From Promethearchaeota archaeon (GTDB taxonomy: Archaea; Asgardarchaeota; Lokiarchaeia; Sigyniarchaeales; SOKP01): a DNA stretch of 64,000 nt. Below are positions 20,087-27,324 of the stretch, one piece after another (position 1 is the stretch's first letter; every line of letters starts with the position of its first letter). A program made the translations under genes and the position numbers. The notes under the pieces were generated by a model. The model worked only from the letters and a program-made list of their open reading frames with translations, ran no database searches and was not told where the DNA came from. Location: NCBI GenBank assembly GCA_048938005.1, contig JBHLMQ010000013.1, positions 15,543-79,542 of the forward strand, read 5' to 3'.

Positions 20087-22501
20087 TTAAAAAGATCTCT
20101 TTTTATTTTTAAATTTAGTATATAATGCTTTATCTAATAGACTTCCTATTTTCACAGCAATTTGATTCCCAATTTCATACCTTTCTCCATCAAGTAGATT
20201 TCTTTTTTCCTCAGGAGTAGGGATTTTACCTAGTCTTTTCATTAAGATTTTTTCAATAATATCATTTACAATATTTTTAGTTTTCTCGTAATTAGGTAAT
20301 TTAATATCTGAAGTGAAGTTTTTAATTTTTTCAATGGCGAAATTAAAAAATTGGCAGATTAAATCTATAGGATCCCCTCTTCTTTCACTGTGAAGTTTGA
20401 TATTATCTGTTGCTATTTTTGTGTCTTTTTCTTGCCAATATAACTGATTTGGGTTAATCCCAGGACTATTAATTCGCATAAGTGAACTTGTGATTCTACG
20501 TTCAATCCAATTTAAAGTACTTAATTCTTGTTCTTCTCGAATTTTTTTTGCTTTTTCTTCTTTTTCTTTTTCTTTCGATTCTATTATTTGTTCTACTTCT
20601 AACTTACGTGTTTGTTCAGATTTTTCAAATCTTTTAATAATATCATAACCAATAGAATATGAAATGGGAGAAATTAAATCCACTTTCAAGTTTAATGGAG
20701 CAATATCCTCGTATATTGGGCTTTCTTTATTTTTTAATTCTGAAATAGCCGTTTTTAAAGAGATCTCCATCAATCGGCTTAAAATGAATCCATTAACTTG
20801 AAATGGCTGATTATCAGCATTAAGTACAATAACTAATTCTTCTTGTCTTTTATTTAACCGTTGAATAATTAATTCTTCAAGTTTAATTTTAACCCATTCC
20901 TCCGAGTCAGTCGTTCCATAGATTTTTTTTAAAGCTAAAAGAATAAGTGATCTATCATTAGAAACCTTAAAATACAACTCTATTATTCTACTAAGCTGCC
21001 TTAAAATCTTGGATAATATATAAAAGAAAATATCTTTTGCTAATTGATTAATAATGTCCTCGAAATCCAAAATAAATAATATATGAGAATAATTTATTAA
21101 CTTTAACTCATTTAAAAAGACCTTATCGATAACTTGCTTTTTTCCAATATACTCTCTTAACTCATTAATACTTGTTCCCATTTTTTCTTCTAAAACTCTT
21201 AATAAATCTGGATATTTATTAAGATCTTTGTTTATTATGTTTAATAATTCAAATTCAGAGACTTTATCGGACATTTCTGAGATTTCCCTGATATATTGAA
21301 AATCTAATTGGGAAATCGCCTTTTTTGCTAAATAGAATAAATTTTGTTTATCGTCATTTAAAGATACAATATCTAGTCTTTTTATATTATATCTAACCAT
21401 GCTACTTTTTACTTTATCAGATAATTCCTCATCAATATTTAAGAAATATAAAACATTGTAAACACCATATTTATTTAAAACATAAATGATATCGTCAAAA
21501 CTACATTCATTTAAACATTCTAAGAAATAGATAAAATCATTCGGATTCTCTTTTAATTTTTTAATTAATACGAATTTTAAAAAGCTTAATACTTTTTTTT
21601 CGAATTGATCATAATTTATTTTCTCCTTAAGACCATCTTCAATTTTTTTTATTAAATCTTTCTTTAAATTATTTGCGGCTATAAAAGTATTCAATCCAGG
21701 TATTGAAATAGGAAACCGGTCAAAATTGAAATCTAAAATTTTCCTTTTTATCATTCTAACTGGCATTGCTTCAATTTGTAGTTCCTTATAAGATTTAAAC
21801 TCGAAATCCTTTTTAGTTTTCTTTATTAATCGATTTAATGTTGCTAATTCTATGAATTTATCTTCCTTCTCTTCCAACTCTAATTTTTTCTCCAATTTAA
21901 CAGATATATCTTTAAAAGCCGCGCTTTTTTCTAAAATTTCTTTTTTAACTTCATTGGTTAGTCCTATTAAATCACCTATTAAATCGTAAAAATAAAAAGG
22001 CGGATAATTTAATATAATTTCTCTTAATTCTTGCTCAATTTGAATTTCAATATCTTTTATCATCTTCTCTTTTTGAATTTCTTGAAGTTCAGGTTTTCTT
22101 TCTTCAATTAACAACGAAATAAATTTGTTTTCTAAATCGATCAATTTATTGAGAAGATTAACTTCTAAAAATAATGAGTTTTTTAATAGGGAACTAACCT
22201 CTTCAAAAATAATCTTTTTTTCTGTGAGTTCTAAATTCTTGGTAGAATCGTAAGTAAATTTATCTAAATCAAAAGTCTTTTGAACCCTGATTCCTATATT
22301 ATGATATATATGAACAGTTGCTGTGGCAATTAATAAATCATTAAAGCTAGTTTTCTGGCTAATAAGTTCAAAGATTTTATTCTTATCAGCTTCCCTTTTA
22401 AAATGGGAAATTATTAAATCAACTGTTTGAAAGAATCTAAACGTACTTTCAACTGCAGTTGTTTTTCTCTTAACTCCGCTAATCATAATTCCTTCACCCA
22501 T
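20087..22501 (-). CDS. Large hypothetical helical protein (804 aa)
   Basis: Long ORF overlapping the end of the upstream gene; coiled-coil-like segments. Confidence 0.8.
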   Translation of the reverse strand: MGEGIMISGVKRKTTAVESTFRFFQTVDLIISHFKREADKNKIFELISQKTSFNDLLIATATVHIYHNIGIRVQKTFDLDKFTYDSTKNLELTEKKIIFEEVSSLLKNSLFLEVNLLNKLIDLENKFISLLIEERKPELQEIQKEKMIKDIEIQIEQELREIILNYPPFYFYDLIGDLIGLTNEVKKEILEKSAAFKDISVKLEKKLELEEKEDKFIELATLNRLIKKTKKDFEFKSYKELQIEAMPVRMIKRKILDFNFDRFPISIPGLNTFIAANNLKKDLIKKIEDGLKEKINYDQFEKKVLSFLKFVLIKKLKENPNDFIYFLECLNECSFDDIIYVLNKYGVYNVLYFLNIDEELSDKVKSSMVRYNIKRLDIVSLNDDKQNLFYLAKKAISQLDFQYIREISEMSDKVSEFELLNIINKDLNKYPDLLRVLEEKMGTSINELREYIGKKQVIDKVFLNELKLINYSHILFILDFEDIINQLAKDIFFYILSKILRQLSRIIELYFKVSNDRSLILLALKKIYGTTDSEEWVKIKLEELIIQRLNKRQEELVIVLNADNQPFQVNGFILSRLMEISLKTAISELKNKESPIYEDIAPLNLKVDLISPISYSIGYDIIKRFEKSEQTRKLEVEQIIESKEKEKEEKAKKIREEQELSTLNWIERRITSSLMRINSPGINPNQLYWQEKDTKIATDNIKLHSERRGDPIDLICQFFNFAIEKIKNFTSDIKLPNYEKTKNIVNDIIEKILMKRLGKIPTPEEKRNLLDGERYEIGNQIAVKIGSLLDKALYTKFKNKKRSF

Positions 22502-24789
22502 TCTCTATAAACTTCTTTAAAATTATCTGATATTTCAAATCTAGCATTATTGTGCCAAAATTTGAAATCTATTACATGAAAAAGTTCTCCCTTAAACAAT
22601 TCTCTTTCCTCATTTGTTAAAATATGTTTTAAAGTTACCGTTAAAGGTCTTGGTACTAATTTCGAAAAATATTTTAATTCCATATTTTTAATATAATTAT
22701 AAAAAGTCTCATCCTCATCTAAATTAAAATAATTAATGGGAATTATTTTCTCTGTTTGAGGATTTAGATAATTCAACTCATTTTTAATATTATTCTTAAC
22801 ATACTTCGGGAATTCAATATTAATATCAATACTAAATTCATAATTCTTATAAAATTCAAGTAATAAACTTTTTTCTTCAGGATTAGGTATTTTGGCTATA
22901 TACATGTCTAAAAAAGCCAGAAAATTTTCAATTTTTTGCTCATTTGATTCTCTCTCTTCAAAATATCCAATAAAATCATTGTATACCTCCGTTAATGTCC
23001 AAATTTTTTGTTCTTCTGGTTTAAGAAATTTCTTAGAATAATCTTTTATCCAATCTAGAATATAAAATTTCCACTCAAGGTTTATACCTCCTATTCTCTT
23101 TTCTAAAAATCTACGAAATCTATTCGCAAAAGTTACAGGATCACTGATTTCTTTATCAGGTTCCTCCTTAATATATCGATTTATTGTAGAATGTCGTAGA
23201 ACATAGCTTAACAAATAACGGAGCTCTCTTGAAAATTTCTTAAATTTCTCAATATGTTCTCTTATTCTTTCAGTATTAGATTCCATCTGGATTTCTGCAA
23301 AAGAGATTAAATCATCTATTTTCAAATCTATTACGTTAAGGAAAATATCAATATTCTTATCAACTATTAAAGTGAATTCTTTTATAAGTTCTGCTTCATC
23401 ATATTTGAGATCCTTTTTTAATAGAATCGAGTGTGTTTCAATATGATTAAAAAGAAATGCTTTAAATTTTCCAATTAATCTCTGTCCTAAAATTTTAGCC
23501 GGTTTTTGCTCCCTATTAAATTTCTCATTTAGGTTTTCAATTAATTTTATAGTTAATGTTTTTAATCTACGATAAGAAAGATATTTTGGAAGTGACCTCC
23601 TAATTAAATTTAGACTTTTTTTAATAATTTCAGAAAAATAATTGAAAACCGAAGTTAATTCTATTATTCTCAAACTTTTTTCTTGCTTTATTGAATGTTT
23701 GATAAATTTTTTAGTTATTTTGAAAATTTCTTCAAAATTTTCATTTTCTAATTTTCCTTTATTTAAAATAAAATGTTCAAATTTGTATAATAATTCATCT
23801 ATATCTCCTATTTCTCCTGTAATGAGAAAATTTCTAGAATATTCTAAAAATTTATTTAGAAATCTTTGTAAAACGACTAGTAATTTATCTATAGAGGAGA
23901 TTAACCATTCTACTGTATGAGGTTCATCATATACTTGTATTTTTTTGCTAATATACTTAATTATAAAAACAACTATTTCATCTTGAGATTCATCTAATGT
24001 TCCTGTATTTGCCAAATTAATGAGATTAGTTCCTAAGTTTAAAGTCTTGTCAACAATGAAATTAGCACTTGGTTCAGATATTGAATATTTAAGATGTTCA
24101 ATAGCTTGTTGTCCATCAAATGGAGTTTTCAGCTTTTGAAATTTAGAATTTAAAAAATTTATCTCCATAGGTCTTTTATACCATAAAATTTCAACATTAG
24201 AGATAATTTTAGCATATGTACTTAACATTTCCTTTTCTGTTGGGAGAGTCCTGCTTAAACCTATTAGTTTTCTGTTCCATTTTTCTTCTATTAGTTCTCC
24301 ATAGAGTTTTTTACTAAATCTAGAGGCGAATTTGTTATACAACTGTTGTTTATTTTCTTTGTTTAATCCTGGGTGATTAGATAACTCTTCTACTTCAAAA
24401 AATAATTTACTTATATTATTCAATGATTCTCTAGATTTATGTATATCTAAAACTCCAGTTTCAGGTTTTAACGCAAGTAGCAAGCTTTCACAATCTTTAA
24501 ATTTGCCTGGTATGAAAATCATTGATTTTGGGAAAATATTAATTCGAGCACTTTTTTCATCAAAGTTGTATAAATCAAACTCTATACTAAACACTTCTGC
24601 TCCCGTATAATCCCGTAAAAAAGCATTATACATTGTTAGAAATCTAATAACTTCTTGTGAAAGCTCAATGACTTTTTTTCTTGTTAGCCTTCCAGGACCA
24701 ATTACATCTCCAGCAATAACATCATTTGGAGAGGAATATCCAAATATCAATGAAAACTGGTAACTTATAGATTCGCGAGTTGTTATCAT
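22483..24789 (-). CDS. Large hypothetical helical protein (768 aa)
   Basis: Long ORF, no recognised catalytic motif. Confidence 0.8.
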   Translation of the reverse strand: MITTRESISYQFSLIFGYSSPNDVIAGDVIGPGRLTRKKVIELSQEVIRFLTMYNAFLRDYTGAEVFSIEFDLYNFDEKSARINIFPKSMIFIPGKFKDCESLLLALKPETGVLDIHKSRESLNNISKLFFEVEELSNHPGLNKENKQQLYNKFASRFSKKLYGELIEEKWNRKLIGLSRTLPTEKEMLSTYAKIISNVEILWYKRPMEINFLNSKFQKLKTPFDGQQAIEHLKYSISEPSANFIVDKTLNLGTNLINLANTGTLDESQDEIVVFIIKYISKKIQVYDEPHTVEWLISSIDKLLVVLQRFLNKFLEYSRNFLITGEIGDIDELLYKFEHFILNKGKLENENFEEIFKITKKFIKHSIKQEKSLRIIELTSVFNYFSEIIKKSLNLIRRSLPKYLSYRRLKTLTIKLIENLNEKFNREQKPAKILGQRLIGKFKAFLFNHIETHSILLKKDLKYDEAELIKEFTLIVDKNIDIFLNVIDLKIDDLISFAEIQMESNTERIREHIEKFKKFSRELRYLLSYVLRHSTINRYIKEEPDKEISDPVTFANRFRRFLEKRIGGINLEWKFYILDWIKDYSKKFLKPEEQKIWTLTEVYNDFIGYFEERESNEQKIENFLAFLDMYIAKIPNPEEKSLLLEFYKNYEFSIDINIEFPKYVKNNIKNELNYLNPQTEKIIPINYFNLDEDETFYNYIKNMELKYFSKLVPRPLTVTLKHILTNEERELFKGELFHVIDFKFWHNNARFEISDNFKEVYREWVKEL

Positions 24790-25113
24790 AATTTAATTCC
24801 ATTAACCAGTAGTAATTCTTAAATCAAGATATTATAAATATTAAATGTTCAGGCAAATACCTAAAATAAAAAATCAAAGGTTGTTTTAAATATTTTTAAG
24901 TTTATAAAGTATTAAAATTTACTTTTGAATAGTAAATAAAGTACACCTATAAAAATATTATAGTAGAAATAAGAGAGTAAGATAATGAATTTAAAAGTCT
25001 TGATTTATTAATCGCACTCTATAAAGATTATTTAATTTTTTAAAATAAAAATATAATAAGAGAAAAACTATATTAATAATAATAAAAACTTAAAGCATTC
25101 AAGGTGTTGGCTT

Positions 25114-25518
25114 ATACAATTTGGGTCTGATTTAGGAATTAATCAAGAGGATATTGAAAAAATTAGCCCTCAAATTACTTTTATAACCTCTAATGCAGAT
25201 ATAGAAGCTATAGCACTTGTAAGTTTTGAAGGGTATCAAATAGCTTTTTCAGCTTTACCACAATATCATGTTGATGGAGATCAATTTTGCGGACTTGCGA
25301 GTGCACTATTAATGACAGGAAGATCAACTATTCAGACTTTATTTCAGGAAGATTTGAGTGAAATCATAGTTCGGGCACAAGATGGCTATATCGTAATTAC
25401 TAATGCGGGGCGACTAGTGATTGTCTGTGCAGGAACAATAATTGATACACTTATGAAGACAGTAAAAGTTATGCGCATTGCAGCAAAGAATCTTTATAAA
25501 ATTTTCGAAAATCGCTAA
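25114..25518 (+). CDS. Roadblock/LC7 (MglB-like) protein, ~134 aa; the track's ATG at 25312 is probably internal
   Basis: Frame is open upstream: DIEAIALVSFEGYQIAFSA...DQFCGLASALLMTG...EIIVRAQDGYIVI gives a full roadblock pattern. ATA at 25114 follows AGGTG. Confidence 0.85.
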   Translation: MQFGSDLGINQEDIEKISPQITFITSNADIEAIALVSFEGYQIAFSALPQYHVDGDQFCGLASALLMTGRSTIQTLFQEDLSEIIVRAQDGYIVITNAGRLVIVCAGTIIDTLMKTVKVMRIAAKNLYKIFENR

Positions 25519-25707
25519 AAAATGTTCTCTTTTTACTCACTCTTTTAGAGACAATCTTATTTTACTTAATTTTCTTTCAAGAGTCTAGAATTTTTAAGCT
25601 CAAAAGTGAACATATTTTTCAACAAGTTTTAAAAAATTTCCATAAGTTTTTATTTATAGATGTATAAACAAGATTTAAAAATACATGATTGATTTTTTTT
25701 GACAATT

Positions 25708-25758
25708 ATGGCAACTGTAAGAAGTATTACTTGGCAGTGGCCTTGGCGTTGGCAATAG
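25708..25758 (+). CDS. Trp-rich leader peptide (uORF) of trpB2, MATVRSITWQWPWRWQ
   Basis: ATG GCA ACT GTA AGA AGT ATT ACT TGG CAG TGG CCT TGG CGT TGG CAA TAG; four TGG codons, 150 nt upstream of trpB2. Confidence 0.8.
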   Translation: MATVRSITWQWPWRWQ

Positions 25759-25786
25759 AGTCAACTACAATGGATTTTACTTAAAA

Positions 25787-25801
25787 TTGTTTTTTCATTT
25801 T
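25787..25801 (+). terminator. U-rich tract between the leader ORF and trpB2 (candidate conditional terminator)
   Basis: TTGTTTTTTCATTTT about 30 nt after the uORF stop. Archaeal terminators are oligo-U, but the genome is AT-rich. Confidence 0.35.
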
Positions 25802-25908
25802 AATATTTCTTCTCAAAATATTAAAAACTCTTTTTAAATGCGCATTATCTATATTGATTTCCAATATCTAAATGATACACATCTTAAGATGTGAAAAAAT
25901 GAATATAA

Positions 25909-27324
25909 GTGGTAATTAAAATGGTGGATTACTTTAATAGTAGAATTTTTTTACAACCAAATGAAATTCCAAAAGAATGGGTAAATATTTTACCAGATTT
26001 ACCCTCTCCTATGACACCCTTAATCAATCCGATGGATGGGAAACCCGCTTCCCCAGAAATGGCATTTGCTATATTTCCTAAAGAATGTGTAATGCAAGAA
26101 GTTTCTCAAGAATCTAATATACCCATTCCTAATGAATTAAGAGAAATTTTTGCGAGCACGTATCGCCCTAGTCCTCTCCATCGTGCTTTAGCTTTAGAAA
26201 AAGAATTAGGTATAGAAGGTGATGAAATTAAAATTTTTTATAAAAATGAATCTTTATCTCCTACTGGTTCGCACAAACCTAATACTGCTATTGCCCAAGC
26301 ATATTATGCAAAGAAGGAAGGAACAGAAGAACTAGTCACCGAAACAGGTGCAGGACAATGGGGTTCAGGCTTAGCATATGGATGCAATCTATTTAAACTT
26401 AAATGCACTGTGTATATGGTAAGAGCAAGCTTTTTACAAAAACCAGGCAGAAAAATTTTAATGAGATCTTTTAATGCTGATGTTCATGCAAGTCCTTCGA
26501 AGCTCACTGAATCTGGAAAAAAATTTTTAGAAAAGGATCCAGGGCATCCAGGTAGTTTAGGAATTTCCATATCTGAAGCATTAGAGCATAGTATGAGAAG
26601 TGATAAAATAAAATATTCTCTAGGAAGTGTAGTTAATTTTGTACTTTTACACCAAACCATTGTAGGACAGGAAGCTAAAATTCAATTAGCGAAAGTAGAT
26701 ATTGAAAAGCCAGATATAATAATTGGGTGCATGGGAGGCGGTTCAAATTTTTCAGGTTTGATGATTCCATTTGTCAGAGATAAACTCCGCGGAATAAGTC
26801 CAGATATAGAAATAATTGGTGTGGAACCTCGAGCATGTCCAAGTGTATGTAAAGGAGAGTATAGATGGGATTTTGGGGATACATCGATGAAGGGACCTAT
26901 AGTAAAGATGCATACTTTAGGACATACTTTCATCCCAAGCCCAATTCATGCAGGAGGATTAAGATACCATGGAATTGCTCCTATTATTTCAATATTATAC
27001 AACAATCGAATTATCAATGCTACTATGCATCATCAAACTGAAGTTATTAAAGCAGGTATTCAATTTGCAAATGCTGAAGGAATACTTCCTGCCCCAGAAA
27101 CCGCTCATGCTGTAAAAGAAGCTATTGATCAAGCATTGAAAGCTAAAGAGGATAATGAAAAGAAAGTTATCTTGTTCAATTTTAGTGGTCATGGATTTTT
27201 TGATTTATTAGCTTATAAAAAATATATGACAGGAGAATTAATGGAATATGAATTACCAACAGAAGAAATCCAAAAAGCTTTAGCGTCAGAAGAGATGCCT
27301 ATAATTGATGAATCTCAATTTTAA
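25909..27324 (+). CDS. trpB2: Tryptophan synthase beta chain, type 2 (TrpB2); start may be ATG 25921
   Basis: IPKEWVNILPDLP, GSHKPNTA (PLP Lys), TETGAGQWG, GSLGISISEA, GGGSNF, IHAGGLRYHG, FNFSGHG. Confidence 0.95.
   Translation: MVIKMVDYFNSRIFLQPNEIPKEWVNILPDLPSPMTPLINPMDGKPASPEMAFAIFPKECVMQEVSQESNIPIPNELREIFASTYRPSPLHRALALEKELGIEGDEIKIFYKNESLSPTGSHKPNTAIAQAYYAKKEGTEELVTETGAGQWGSGLAYGCNLFKLKCTVYMVRASFLQKPGRKILMRSFNADVHASPSKLTESGKKFLEKDPGHPGSLGISISEALEHSMRSDKIKYSLGSVVNFVLLHQTIVGQEAKIQLAKVDIEKPDIIIGCMGGGSNFSGLMIPFVRDKLRGISPDIEIIGVEPRACPSVCKGEYRWDFGDTSMKGPIVKMHTLGHTFIPSPIHAGGLRYHGIAPIISILYNNRIINATMHHQTEVIKAGIQFANAEGILPAPETAHAVKEAIDQALKAKEDNEKKVILFNFSGHGFFDLLAYKKYMTGELMEYELPTEEIQKALASEEMPIIDESQF

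What the first reader, a model, noticed from the sequence alone, without database searches (positions are those of the whole stretch)
25640..25921. Trp-rich leader peptide upstream of trpB2: candidate ribosome-mediated attenuation in an archaeon
Seen: a TATA-like TTTATTTATA (~25649-25658), then the uORF MATVRSITWQWPWRWQ* (25708-25758) with four Trp codons in W-x-W-x-W-x-W spacing, standing out as GC-rich in AT-rich DNA. A weak hairpin GTTGGC-aataga-GTCAAC spans the stop, followed by a U-rich tract (25787-25801) and then a tryptophan synthase beta gene. Established: Trp-codon leader peptides sense charged tRNA-Trp in bacteria (trpL). The archaeal trp control I know of is mainly repressor-based (TrpY), and archaea terminate at oligo-U tracts with aCPSF1/FttA. 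Inference: ribosome stalling under Trp limitation blocks termination or cleavage in the U-rich spacer and allows trpB2 expression. No strong bacterial terminator/antiterminator pair is visible, so the mechanism would differ from trpL and may resemble ribosome masking as in tnaC/Rho, or eukaryotic uORF control.
Basis: partly seen in the sequence, partly recalled or inferred. Interest (0 to 1): 0.88.

Follow-up and report, generated by a model that had tools for sequence, protein, structure and literature searches.

The report
Tryptophan-codon leader ORF in Asgard archaea
A tiny gene packed with tryptophan codons sits in front of a tryptophan-making gene in this Asgard archaeon and in many of its relatives, which suggests that archaea, like bacteria, can use a stalling ribosome to sense amino-acid shortage.

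Summary
ATG 25708 to TAG 25758 encodes MATVRSITWQWPWRWQ, 162 nt upstream of a TrpB-like (trpB2) gene.

It is not chance. An ATG ORF with clustered Trp codons lies upstream of trpB2 in 26 of 28 loci of the same order, against 0 of 28 on the antisense strand and about 0.6 in shuffles. It also occurs in several other Asgard families. In 53 of 62 loci the TGG triplets are in frame with an upstream ATG and a nearby stop; the other two frames give 0 and 1. Relatives that carry a full trp operon have the same kind of leader before trpD. His-rich leaders precede hisIE-hisG-hisD.

The last Trp codon sits in the 5' arm of a conserved hairpin with the stop codon in its loop, followed by a T-run.

The best reading is a ribosome-sensed Trp leader. 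How stalling switches expression is inferred only: no terminator/antiterminator alternative is predicted, a second promoter before trpB2 cannot be excluded, and no RNA data were available.

My searches found no description of this in archaea.

The parts
25647..25658 (+). TATA-like box (TTTTTATTTATA) of the leader promoter, about 50-60 nt before the uORF ATG
   Evidence: The TTTTTA core is invariant or nearly so in 17 same-genus loci. TATA-like boxes sit 45-60 nt before the uORF ATG in other families too. Promoter function is inferred.
25708..25758 (+). Leader ORF MATVRSITWQWPWRWQ*
   Evidence: The ORF is kept in frame despite a variable N-terminus and 3n indels. There is no SD-like motif before it in this genome; GGTG lies 4-14 nt upstream in GC-richer families.
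25732..25752 (+). Four Trp codons (25732, 25738, 25744, 25750) spaced by one codon
   Evidence: The stretch TGGCAGTGGCCTTGG is nearly invariant in the genus. Frame test 53/0/1 of 62 loci.
25741..25773 (+). Hairpin P1: inner stem GUUGGC/GUCAAC (25748-25753 with 25760-25765), outer CCUUG/CAA(U)GG; Trp codons 3 and 4 in the 5' arm, stop codon in the loop
   Evidence: 88% of cells paired in helix 1, some double changes. The same design is seen in other families.
25787..25801 (+). U-rich tract 1 (T6 at 25790-25795), candidate archaeal termination site
   Evidence: A T5+ run starts 31 nt after the stop in most same-genus loci. The termination role is inferred.
25798..25826 (+). Hairpin P2 (UUUUAAUAUU / AAUAUUAAAA), all A-U
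   Evidence: 80% of cells paired and 5 of 10 pairs with changes on both sides. Its predicted probability does not depend on P1 or on the ribosome mask.
25828..25839 (+). CTCTTTTTAAAT: second T-run directly after P2, or the TATA box of a separate trpB2 promoter
   Evidence: Strongly conserved. A similar TTTTTAAAT..CATTA is kept in uORF-less relative L142. Its role is unresolved.
25843..25874 (+). P3 imperfect palindrome CATTA-N4-TATTG-ATTTC-CAATA-N3-AAATG (RNA hairpin or DNA operator)
   Evidence: It is unique in the genome. It is also present in the duplicated leader before the trp operon of G017 and in uORF-less L139 and L142.
25878..25893 (+). P4 hairpin CACATC-TTAA-GATGTG
   Evidence: It is conserved in the genus and in L043.
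25909..25916 (+). SD-like GTGGTAAT before trpB2
   Evidence: SD-like motifs peak at -20..-11 before genes of this genome (183 against 16-53 in every other bin, 862 genes).
25921..27324 (+). trpB2 (TrpB-like PLP enzyme), the only trp gene found in this genome
   Evidence: No TrpA, IGPS or chorismate-binding (TrpE-type) match in G000.

Best explanation
The 16-codon ORF at 25708-25758 is a cis-acting leader that reports the supply of charged tRNA-Trp through the speed of its own translation, and so sets expression of the downstream trpB2.

Shown: the ORF, its Trp codons and its stop are conserved as a reading frame across many Asgard genomes. The leader accompanies Trp genes of two kinds (stand-alone trpB2 and trpD-led operons). 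The last Trp codon(s) lie in the 5' arm of a conserved hairpin (P1) whose loop holds the stop codon. A T-rich tract follows.

Inferred: with Trp plentiful, the ribosome finishes and leaves, P1 folds, and transcription ends, or the RNA is cut, at the U-tract(s) at 25787-25801 and/or 25831-25835, probably with the archaeal U-tract/aCPSF1(FttA) machinery. With Trp scarce, the ribosome waits on the Trp codons, holds the 5' arm of P1 and stays close behind the polymerase, so transcription runs on into trpB2.

The sensing part is well supported. The output step (termination, rather than RNA stability or interplay with a second promoter) is not.
For: Conservation of the ORF. An ATG ORF of 5-60 codons with at least 2 Trp in 5 residues lies within 450 nt upstream of trpB2 in:
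- 26 of 28 order-level loci (antisense 0 of 28; shuffles mean 0.6, max 2);
- 19 of 26 further loci of the family (antisense 0; shuffles 1.0);
- 13 of 54 loci of other families of the phylum (antisense 0; shuffles 2.0).

Frame test: of 62 loci with TGGNNNTGG, 53 have an in-frame upstream ATG and a stop within 8 codons; the +1 and +2 frames give 0 and 1.

N-termini and lengths vary (11-59 aa) while the Trp codons and the stop persist.

Link to Trp genes: the first gene (trpD) of trp operons in relatives is preceded by W-rich leaders in 5 of 6 assessable regions. L043-L046 use ATG and L041 uses TTG.

The same logic applies to another amino acid: His-rich leaders precede hisIE-hisG-hisD in 7 of 30 HisG loci, antisense 0 of 30.

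Structure: P1 plus P2 have 84% of cells paired against 30-45% when slid, and 7 pairs changed on both sides (10 of 500 shuffles reach this). The GG of the last Trp codon is in a 5' arm in 37 of 62 leaders. Mean folding z is -1.13 against -0.07 for control segments. A T5+ run starts 31 nt after the stop in most genus loci.

Promoter and start context: a TATA-like box lies about 45-60 nt before the uORF ATG, and GGTG lies before the ATG in GC-richer families.

Physiology: G000 has no TrpA, IGPS or TrpE-type match, so trpB2 is its only route to Trp.
Against: No transcript data: 0 of 20 listed runs are RNA, so co-transcription of the uORF and trpB2 is not shown.

No alternative pairing is predicted. 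Masking a stalled ribosome removes P1 (0.43 to 0.04) but leaves P2 (0.46 against 0.45) and SD accessibility (0.61 against 0.60) unchanged.

P1 lies about 16 nt before the T6 run, which is too far for a bacterial-type intrinsic terminator. The terminator scan found none on the + strand.

The spacer holds a conserved TATA-like run and a palindrome. These persist in two family members that lack the uORF (L139, L142). Seven family loci have no TGGNNNTGG at all, so trpB2 may have its own promoter and the leader is dispensable.

The uORF in this genome has no SD-like motif.

Related genomes are not independent samples, so the counts overstate significance.
Confidence: 0.6

Rival explanations
1. There are two separate units. 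The uORF is a tiny transcription unit ending at the T-tract. trpB2 is transcribed from its own promoter (TATA-like 25831-25839) and controlled by a protein bound to the palindrome at 25843-25874. The leader influences trpB2 only indirectly (occlusion, a small contribution of read-through) or not at all.
For: The block TTTTTAAAT..CATTA..TATTGATTTCCAATA..CACATC is as conserved as the uORF. It is kept in L139 and L142, which lack the uORF. TATA-like sequences with promoter-like spacing also lie between the uORF and trpB2 in family f5. No structural switch is predicted.
Against: This does not explain why a Trp-codon ORF is kept next to Trp genes in several families and before trpD operons. The His leaders lie only 81-87 nt before hisIE in 6 of 7 loci, with a hairpin plus U-run directly before the SD, which leaves little room for a second promoter. 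The palindrome occurs nowhere else in the genome, so there is no regulon support. In G017 the whole leader, including P3 and P4, was copied in front of the trp operon as one piece.
Confidence: 0.2
2. The leader senses Trp by ribosome stalling, but the output is post-transcriptional: mRNA stability or processing around P1, or translation of trpB2, rather than transcription termination.
For: The evidence for sensing is the same as above. P1 is not placed like a terminator hairpin. Archaeal termination is reported to rest on U-tracts and aCPSF1 rather than hairpins (PMC8716108 and PMC7515710, abstracts in the listing).
Against: Predicted SD accessibility does not change with the ribosome mask. 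The distance from the uORF stop to trpB2 (106-357 nt) is long for translational coupling.
Confidence: 0.15
3. The ORF encodes a functional Trp-rich micropeptide, such as a cofactor or partner of TrpB2, rather than a sensor.
For: Within the genus the N-terminus MATV.. recurs. Families f5 and f18 share the start MGFALT. The His-rich ORFs have a conserved middle (..VIRSDDV..).
Against: Across families only the Trp codons, their position at the C-terminal end and the stop are kept, while length varies from 11 to 59 aa. The same design with His codons precedes his genes, which fits sensing and not a shared peptide function.
Confidence: 0.06
4. The conserved element is an untranslated nucleic-acid motif (UGG/TGGC repeats bound by a protein, as TRAP binds triplet repeats), or the antisense Pro-rich ORF 25764-25675, or chance.
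For: CAG and CCT between the Trp codons are nearly invariant at their third positions, so there is constraint at the nucleotide level. A 29-aa antisense ORF exists.
Against: Frame test 53/0/1 of 62. Many families have only two TGG. There is no TRAP (PF02081) match in G000. The antisense Pro frame has a start and at least 20 aa in only 17 of 47 loci, with erratic lengths. Antisense and shuffle controls are near zero.
Confidence: 0.04

Closest known systems
Bacterial trp leader (trpL, Rfam Trp_leader RF00513): ribosome-mediated transcription attenuation
   Same: A short ORF rich in the cognate codon directly upstream of trp biosynthetic genes. The Trp codons sit in the 5' arm of a hairpin with the leader's stop codon between the arms; the E. 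coli 1:2 hairpin is recalled from memory, not taken from a call. A U-rich tract lies downstream, and a dedicated promoter lies before the leader.
   Different: The domain is Archaea, and archaeal RNA polymerase terminates at U-tracts with aCPSF1/FttA (abstracts). No 2:3 antiterminator or 3:4 terminator alternative is predicted. There is no Rfam match. The Trp codons alternate (WxWxWxW or WxW) instead of standing in tandem. The regulated gene here is a stand-alone trpB2 in a genome without the rest of the pathway.
Polycysteine leaderless short ORFs of mycobacteria (bioRxiv 10.1101/834739; title and abstract seen in the listings)
   Same: Cognate-codon-rich small ORFs as the first cistron act as amino-acid-responsive attenuators of operon genes, outside the classic enterobacterial hairpin scheme.
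   Different: These are bacterial, leaderless and sense cysteine. I did not read the details of the mechanism.
tnaC / Rho masking in E. coli (recalled)
   Same: A ribosome held near the end of a leader ORF could keep a termination factor from the nascent RNA.
   Different: TnaC senses free Trp through a conserved nascent peptide and induces a catabolic operon. Here the peptide's N-terminus is variable and the genes are biosynthetic, so starvation must switch them on. Not tested.
TrpY repression of the trp operon in Methanothermobacter (cited in PMC1854888, passages)
   Same: It is archaeal, Trp-responsive control of trp genes. The palindrome at 25843-25874 could be an operator of some such repressor.
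   Different: TrpY is a DNA-binding repressor and involves no leader ORF. I ran no TrpY search.
Eukaryotic uORF control (GCN4/ATF4 type; recalled)
   Same: Upstream ORFs tune expression of amino-acid pathway genes, in the lineage whose closest prokaryotic relatives are Asgard archaea.
   Different: Those sense eIF2 ternary complex through re-initiation, not cognate-codon stalling. No homology is implied.

Membership tests
trpL-type ribosome-mediated attenuator (bacterial Trp leader, RF00513) | Short ORF with clustered Trp codons immediately upstream of trp biosynthetic gene(s) | tested here: met
trpL-type ribosome-mediated attenuator (bacterial Trp leader, RF00513) | Leader ORF conserved as a reading frame in orthologous loci | tested here: met
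   26 of 28 against 0 of 28 antisense. Frame test 53/0/1 of 62.
trpL-type ribosome-mediated attenuator (bacterial Trp leader, RF00513) | Mutually exclusive antiterminator and terminator hairpins selected by ribosome position | tested here: not met
   Only P1 responds to the ribosome mask. P2 is unchanged (0.46 against 0.45) and so is the SD (0.61 against 0.60). The alifold consensus shows no alternative.
trpL-type ribosome-mediated attenuator (bacterial Trp leader, RF00513) | G+C-rich terminator hairpin directly followed by a U-run before the structural gene | tested here: inconclusive
   The scan finds none on the + strand. The all-A-U hairpin P2 is followed by CUCUUUUU, and T6 lies 16 nt after P1.
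trpL-type ribosome-mediated attenuator (bacterial Trp leader, RF00513) | Match to the Rfam covariance model | tested here: not met
   There are no leader families at gathering score, nor at E up to 10 on 25560-25960.
trpL-type ribosome-mediated attenuator (bacterial Trp leader, RF00513) | Trp-dependent premature termination or read-through shown on RNA | not testable with these tools
   No RNA run is listed.
TRAP (MtrB)-mediated attenuation | TRAP protein and about 11 (G/U)AG repeats in the leader | tested here: not met
   PF02081 is not found in G000, while the control rings in B. subtilis. The repeats here are 2-5 UGG triplets in frame with an ORF.
T-box riboswitch | Rfam T-box model match upstream of the gene | tested here: not met
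TrpB2 (TrpB-like PLP enzyme, TIGR01415 / NF009057) | Score above the curated cut-offs over the full length | tested here: met
   633.4 bits (cut-off 366) and 586.4 bits (cut-off 518.85). The canonical trpB model TIGR00263 scores 149 bits, below its cut-off of 392.
Archaeal U-tract / aCPSF1(FttA) terminator | Run of at least 5 U at the transcript 3' end, with the aCPSF1 factor present | tested here: inconclusive
   T6 at 25790-25795 and T5 at 25831-25835 are conserved. 3' ends were not mapped, and I did not search aCPSF1 in G000.

The most novel reading that the evidence does not exclude
Leader-peptide sensing of charged tRNA is a general regulatory layer in Asgard archaea. It is seen here for Trp (trpB2 and trpD operons) and His (hisIE-hisG-hisD). 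It works with archaeal U-tract/aCPSF1 termination, or another archaeal output, and with a single ribosome-occluded hairpin in place of the bacterial terminator/antiterminator switch. This would be the first attenuation system described in Archaea, found in the closest prokaryotic relatives of eukaryotes. It would also be regulatory evidence that the 'TrpB-like' enzyme really supplies tryptophan.
Probability: 0.5. Interest if true: 0.9.

Novelty: new variant of a known kind. Interest (0 to 1): 0.85.

Why it matters
Attenuation by leader peptides is the textbook case of regulation through coupled transcription and translation, and it is known from bacteria. My searches of the held library found no archaeal case. 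A 2021 review of transcription-translation coupling in archaea contains neither 'attenuat' nor 'leader peptide'. A 2007 paper lists only M. thermautotrophicus and T. kodakarensis as archaea with known trp regulation.

A conserved Trp, and apparently His, leader in Asgard archaea would have four consequences:
- It would show that ribosome-based amino-acid sensing exists in archaea.
- It would give a natural, compact test bed for how a translating ribosome talks to the archaeal polymerase and its termination factor.
- It would offer a Trp-responsive control element for archaeal genetics.
- It would support a real role in Trp supply, presumably from indole, for the stand-alone TrpB2. That enzyme carries only a 'TrpB-like' name, and it is the only trp gene found in this genome.

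Tried and rejected
Expression data: the look-up of sequencing runs listed 20 holders, none on record as RNA, so no RNA holder is listed. Read laying on 4 DNA runs only confirmed the sequence.

Translational switch: masking a stalled ribosome did not change predicted SD accessibility (0.61 against 0.60, 17 sequences).

Antiterminator: the P2 probability is the same with and without the mask. RNAalifold gave only short local helices. The single-sequence fold has z -1.76.

Known RNA families: none apart from two tRNAs elsewhere in the window. The E-value scan gave only E>2 noise.

TRAP-like protein: not found.

Regulon for the palindrome and other blocks: no second copy in G000.

Other cognate leaders in G000: of the ten best candidates, none precedes a gene of the matching pathway. 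An M-rich ORF before an AA_kinase gene on a 2.8-kb contig was left as probable chance.

A second W-rich small ORF (G000 C56:14783-14842) is the antisense reading of a Pro-rich 65-aa ORF and was rejected.

The antisense Pro-rich ORF over the uORF itself was rejected.

TATA position statistics in G000 gave no sharp peak, so they could not decide between one and two promoters.

A mini-ORF at CAATGG (25770) was rejected: that position varies (ATG, TTG, ATA, ACG, GTG) and fits the bulge of P1.

The sigma-70 promoter hits are irrelevant for an archaeon.

Supplementary files of papers were not asked for, and they might hold sORF lists that bear on the novelty claim. Subscription papers are outside the library. 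I did not test amino acids other than Trp and His in relatives.
Full report
THE OBSERVATION. The window reads ATG at 25708 and TAG at 25756-25758. Between them lies MATVRSITWQWPWRWQ, with four TGG codons at 25732, 25738, 25744 and 25750. Around it sit a TATA-like TTTTTATTTATA (25647-25658), the hairpin GTTGGC-AATAGA-GTCAAC around the stop (25748-25765) and a T-rich tract (25787-25801). The next gene starts at ATG 25921. It scores above the curated cut-offs of NF009057 (633 bits against 366) and TIGR01415 (586 against 518.85), 'TrpB-like PLP-dependent enzyme', that is TrpB2. It scores below the cut-off of canonical trpB. The contig is archaeal: it carries RNase P p30 and Rpp14/Pop5, TYW2, NFACT and a Roadblock/LC7 gene just upstream. 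The nearest named TrpB2 records are 'Promethearchaeota archaeon' MAGs at 76% and 72% identity. The genome has 29.8% G+C. Contigs of four DNA runs from four studies carry the uORF unchanged; the only differences are at 25610 and 25631.

IS IT CHANCE? Within this genome, 63 entries among 69,549 small ATG ORFs have three or more Trp in seven residues, mostly inside coding sequence. Among 3,468 intergenic small ORFs that have a co-directional gene within 450 nt, this one ranks third for enrichment of a single residue, behind a poly-G and a poly-F run. One such ORF alone would prove little. The weight lies in comparison.

CONSERVATION. TrpB2 was found in 32 of 41 relatives and in 138 of 201 genomes of the phylum at E<=1e-60. 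I scanned up to 450 nt upstream of the gene for ATG ORFs of 5-60 codons with at least two Trp within five residues. Loci with under 300 nt of upstream sequence were dropped, which removed L020.
- Order-level set: 26 of 28 loci on the sense strand, 0 of 28 on the antisense strand, and a mean of 0.6 (maximum 2) in 20 shuffles.
- Further loci of the same family: 19 of 26, 0, and 1.0.
- Six extra family loci: 3 of 6, 0, and 0.1.
- Other families of the phylum: 13 of 54, 0, and 2.0.

The hits outside the order are clustered. Family f5 has ..FWAWRWLTWP, f9 has ..QWHWGPRGPV and variants, f18 has ..SWHPWHSWRWQ, and f24 has one hit. None was seen in f6, f7, f10, f11, f15, f17, f21, f22 or f23. The looser criterion also counted single ORFs in f14, f16 and f20, about as many as shuffling yields. 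Named records agree: Promethearchaeota L058, Candidatus Borrarchaeum L110 and Thorarchaeota L133 carry leaders. L059 has W-x3-W. Thorarchaeota L136 has none. Some loci use TTG starts (L213, L214, L217; L041). Related genomes are not independent, so these counts describe breadth and are not a P-value.

IS IT TRANSLATED? Of 62 loci with TGGNNNTGG upstream of trpB2, 53 have the TGGs in frame with an upstream ATG, no intervening stop, and a stop within eight codons after the motif. For the +1 and +2 frames the numbers are 0 and 1. In the genus alignment the N-terminal codons vary and indels come in multiples of three, while ATG, the Trp codons and the stop stay. One locus, L010, has a 1-nt deletion after the fourth Trp codon. 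Across families the peptide is 11-59 aa long, with no shared sequence except the Trp cluster at the C-terminal end. In GC-richer families a GGTG motif lies 4-14 nt before the uORF ATG, and a TATA-like box lies 45-60 nt before it. In this genome the uORF has no such SD, although SD-like motifs are common before its genes. The antisense Pro-rich frame (29 aa here) has a start and at least 20 aa in only 17 of 47 loci, with erratic length. I reject it.

LINK TO TRYPTOPHAN. G000 is 95% complete with 7% contamination. It has no match to TrpA, IGPS or the chorismate-binding (TrpE-type) family, while the controls ring in 14 of 14 genomes. TrpA was found in 10 of 41 relatives and in 2 of 24 of the genus. 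So trpB2 stands alone here. The same was noted long ago for Pyrococcus horikoshii (PMC1854888, passages). I fetched 7 regions from relatives with a full operon. In six the start of the operon could be examined. Five have a Trp-rich leader directly before trpD (Pfam Glycos_transf_3): L043 MATEKIILFRWQWLWRA, L044 ..FFCTWWPWQ, L045 ..FWFWWAWRL, L046 MAILPRTIAWSWRR, and L041 with a TTG start ..SWTIWAWRL. L042 showed none. L047 has no upstream sequence. In G017 the operon's leader is a copy of the trpB2 leader, including the downstream blocks and a remnant of the trpB2 start.

THE SAME DESIGN FOR HISTIDINE. HisG occurs in 44 of 81 genomes of the order and not in G000. In 7 of 30 HisG loci, against 0 of 30 on the antisense strand, an ORF ending in ..SHLHHHLHHK..YLHHWLHHE or the like lies upstream of hisIE-hisG-hisD. 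The gap to hisIE is 81-87 nt in six loci and 35 nt in L235. After its stop comes a long hairpin whose arms covary (UCCGAUGAA/UUCAUCGGA; CCCAAUGA/UCAUUGGG). Then a short hairpin plus UUU(U) stands directly before the SD. This makes a general leader-peptide layer in these archaea likely. Because the spacer is so short, it also argues for co-transcription of leader and operon.

ANATOMY OF THE TRPB2 LEADER. The 17 same-genus sequences share these elements:
- the TATA-like box;
- the uORF;
- hairpin P1 (25741-25773), with Trp codons 3 and 4 in its 5' arm and the stop in its loop;
- the motif CAWTGGAT;
- a T-run that starts 31 nt after the stop in most loci;
- an all-A-U hairpin P2 (25798-25826);
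- CTCTTTTTAAAT (25828-25839);
- an imperfect palindrome P3 (25843-25874);
- a hairpin P4 (25878-25893);
- an SD-like GTGGTAAT and the start codon.

For P1 plus P2, 84% of cells pair against 30-45% when the partners are slid. Seven pairs change on both sides, a value reached by 10 of 500 shuffles. The P1 design recurs in distant families with other sequences. Examples are CUUGGCAC-UAGAG-GUGUCAAG in L024, GCGACCG..CGGUCGC in L022, CCUGGCG..CGCCAGG in L046, GUGGC..GCCAC in f5, and GGGGUCC-N4-GGACCC, which starts in the last Trp codon, in f9. Over 62 leaders, the GG of the last Trp codon is in a 5' arm of the minimum-energy fold in 37. The mean z is -1.13 against -0.07 for control segments. The third positions of CAG and CCT between the Trp codons are almost invariant, which fits a constraint on RNA as well as on coding.

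MECHANISM: SHOWN AND INFERRED. Shown: a conserved, in-frame Trp-codon ORF with its own promoter-like box, a hairpin that a ribosome waiting on the Trp codons must open, and T-runs downstream.

Inferred: with Trp-tRNA plentiful the ribosome leaves, P1 folds and the transcript ends at the T-runs. With Trp-tRNA scarce the ribosome holds P1 open and stays near the polymerase, and transcription continues. Archaeal termination is reported to depend on U-tracts together with aCPSF1/FttA (PMC8716108, PMC7515710, PMC11616081; starts of abstracts in the listing). A perspective states that factor-dependent termination probably requires uncoupling of transcription and translation (PMC13681488, passage). 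That gives a plausible output without a bacterial antiterminator.

Against a trpL-like switch, four results stand. P2 and the SD are predicted to be indifferent to the ribosome mask. P1 is 16 nt from the T6 run. The terminator scan finds nothing on the + strand. Rfam has no match.

THE MAIN UNCERTAINTY. Seven loci of the family have no Trp motif upstream (L139, L142, L144, L145, L147-L149). Two of them, L139 and L142, keep the P3/P4 block, and L142 also keeps a TTTTTAAAT..CATTA. The downstream block is therefore a separable module. It could be a core promoter with an operator, or a 5'-UTR element. trpB2 may thus have a promoter of its own downstream of the uORF. The palindrome has no second copy in the genome. 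TATA-position statistics could not decide the matter. No RNA run was available. I therefore put 0.6 on a cis-acting Trp-sensing leader, and less, about 0.35-0.4, on termination at the T-runs as its output.

KNOWN SYSTEMS AND NOVELTY. The system works like bacterial trpL in its sensing logic and in the placement of the Trp codons and stop in a hairpin. The E. coli detail is recalled from memory. It is not a member of that RNA family: the model does not match and no alternative hairpins are predicted. It is not TRAP-like and not a T-box. The mycobacterial polycysteine uORFs are the nearest analogue outside the classic scheme (10.1101/834739, abstract only).

Ten searches of the held library found no archaeal leader-peptide attenuator. 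The passages checked were unrelated. One search reports that uORFs in M. jannaschii 5' UTRs are no more frequent than in random sequence. One search shows that a review of archaeal coupling mentions neither attenuation nor leader peptides. 'Not in print' therefore holds only for these searches.

VERDICT. It is a conserved Trp-codon leader in Asgard archaea, with a His counterpart. It is most likely a ribosome-based amino-acid sensor. Its output mechanism is open and may differ from the bacterial one.

Noticed in passing
L226:172-318 (also L224, L225, L227, L230, L232, L235): His-rich leader ORFs (for example ..SHLHHHLHHK*) lie 81-87 nt upstream of hisIE-hisG-hisD in six loci and 35 nt in L235, in 7 of 30 HisG loci of the order. 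They are followed by a covarying hairpin and by a hairpin plus U-run before the SD. The middle of these 33-54-aa ORFs (..VIRSDDV..) is conserved, unexplained.
   Followed up: partly
L043:12059-12310: In G017 (same genus) the leader before the trp operon is a copy of the trpB2 leader. It includes the P3/P4 blocks and a remnant of the trpB2 start (a 15-codon ORF), followed by about 250 nt before trpD.
   Followed up: partly
window 25102-25518 (+): A Roadblock/LC7 ORF (Pfam 8.9e-08 over residues 28-108 of the stop-to-stop frame) has no in-frame ATG, GTG or TTG before 25312, which would cut the domain. This points to a non-canonical start or an assembly error.
   Followed up: no
L175, L176, L180, L181 (family f9; named relative L133, Thorarchaeota): The leaders end in W-x-W-G-P-(A/R)-G-P-V*. 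The codons of GP.GP form a G+C hairpin, GGGGUCC-N4-GGACCC, that starts in the last Trp codon. The loop, and with it the middle residue, varies.
   Followed up: partly
L164, L165 (f5) and L201, L202 (f18; named relative L110, Ca. Borrarchaeum): These long leaders (45-59 aa) from two families share the N-terminus MGFALT/MGLALT and end in four Trp codons. The post-stop motif GCCACUGCAAUGG of f5 resembles GCCAACUGCAAUGG of the window's genus.
   Followed up: no
L139, L142, L144, L145, L147-L149: These family members have no Trp leader upstream of trpB2. L139 and L142 still carry the ATTGAT(T/C)(T/C)CCAAT palindrome and the CACAT.. hairpin.
   Followed up: partly
L082, L084, L126, L077 (bacterial TrpB2 loci): Small ORFs with WWW or WWWW lie upstream of TrpB2 in several bacterial MAGs. 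They are probably ordinary bacterial Trp leaders.
   Followed up: no
G000 C56:14783-14842 (L254:2786-2983): A W-rich small ORF here is the antisense reading of a 65-aa coiled-coil plus Pro-rich ORF (..PPGPPGPPGPPPEP..). It is not a leader.
   Followed up: yes
window 20087-24789 (-): Two large adjacent ORFs (804 and 768 aa) have no Pfam match.
   Followed up: no
window 25725-25769: In run X5 the contig depth rises from about 37 to about 290 over the Trp-codon core only. The loose ends show other N-termini, so many related organisms in that sample share this core.
   Followed up: no
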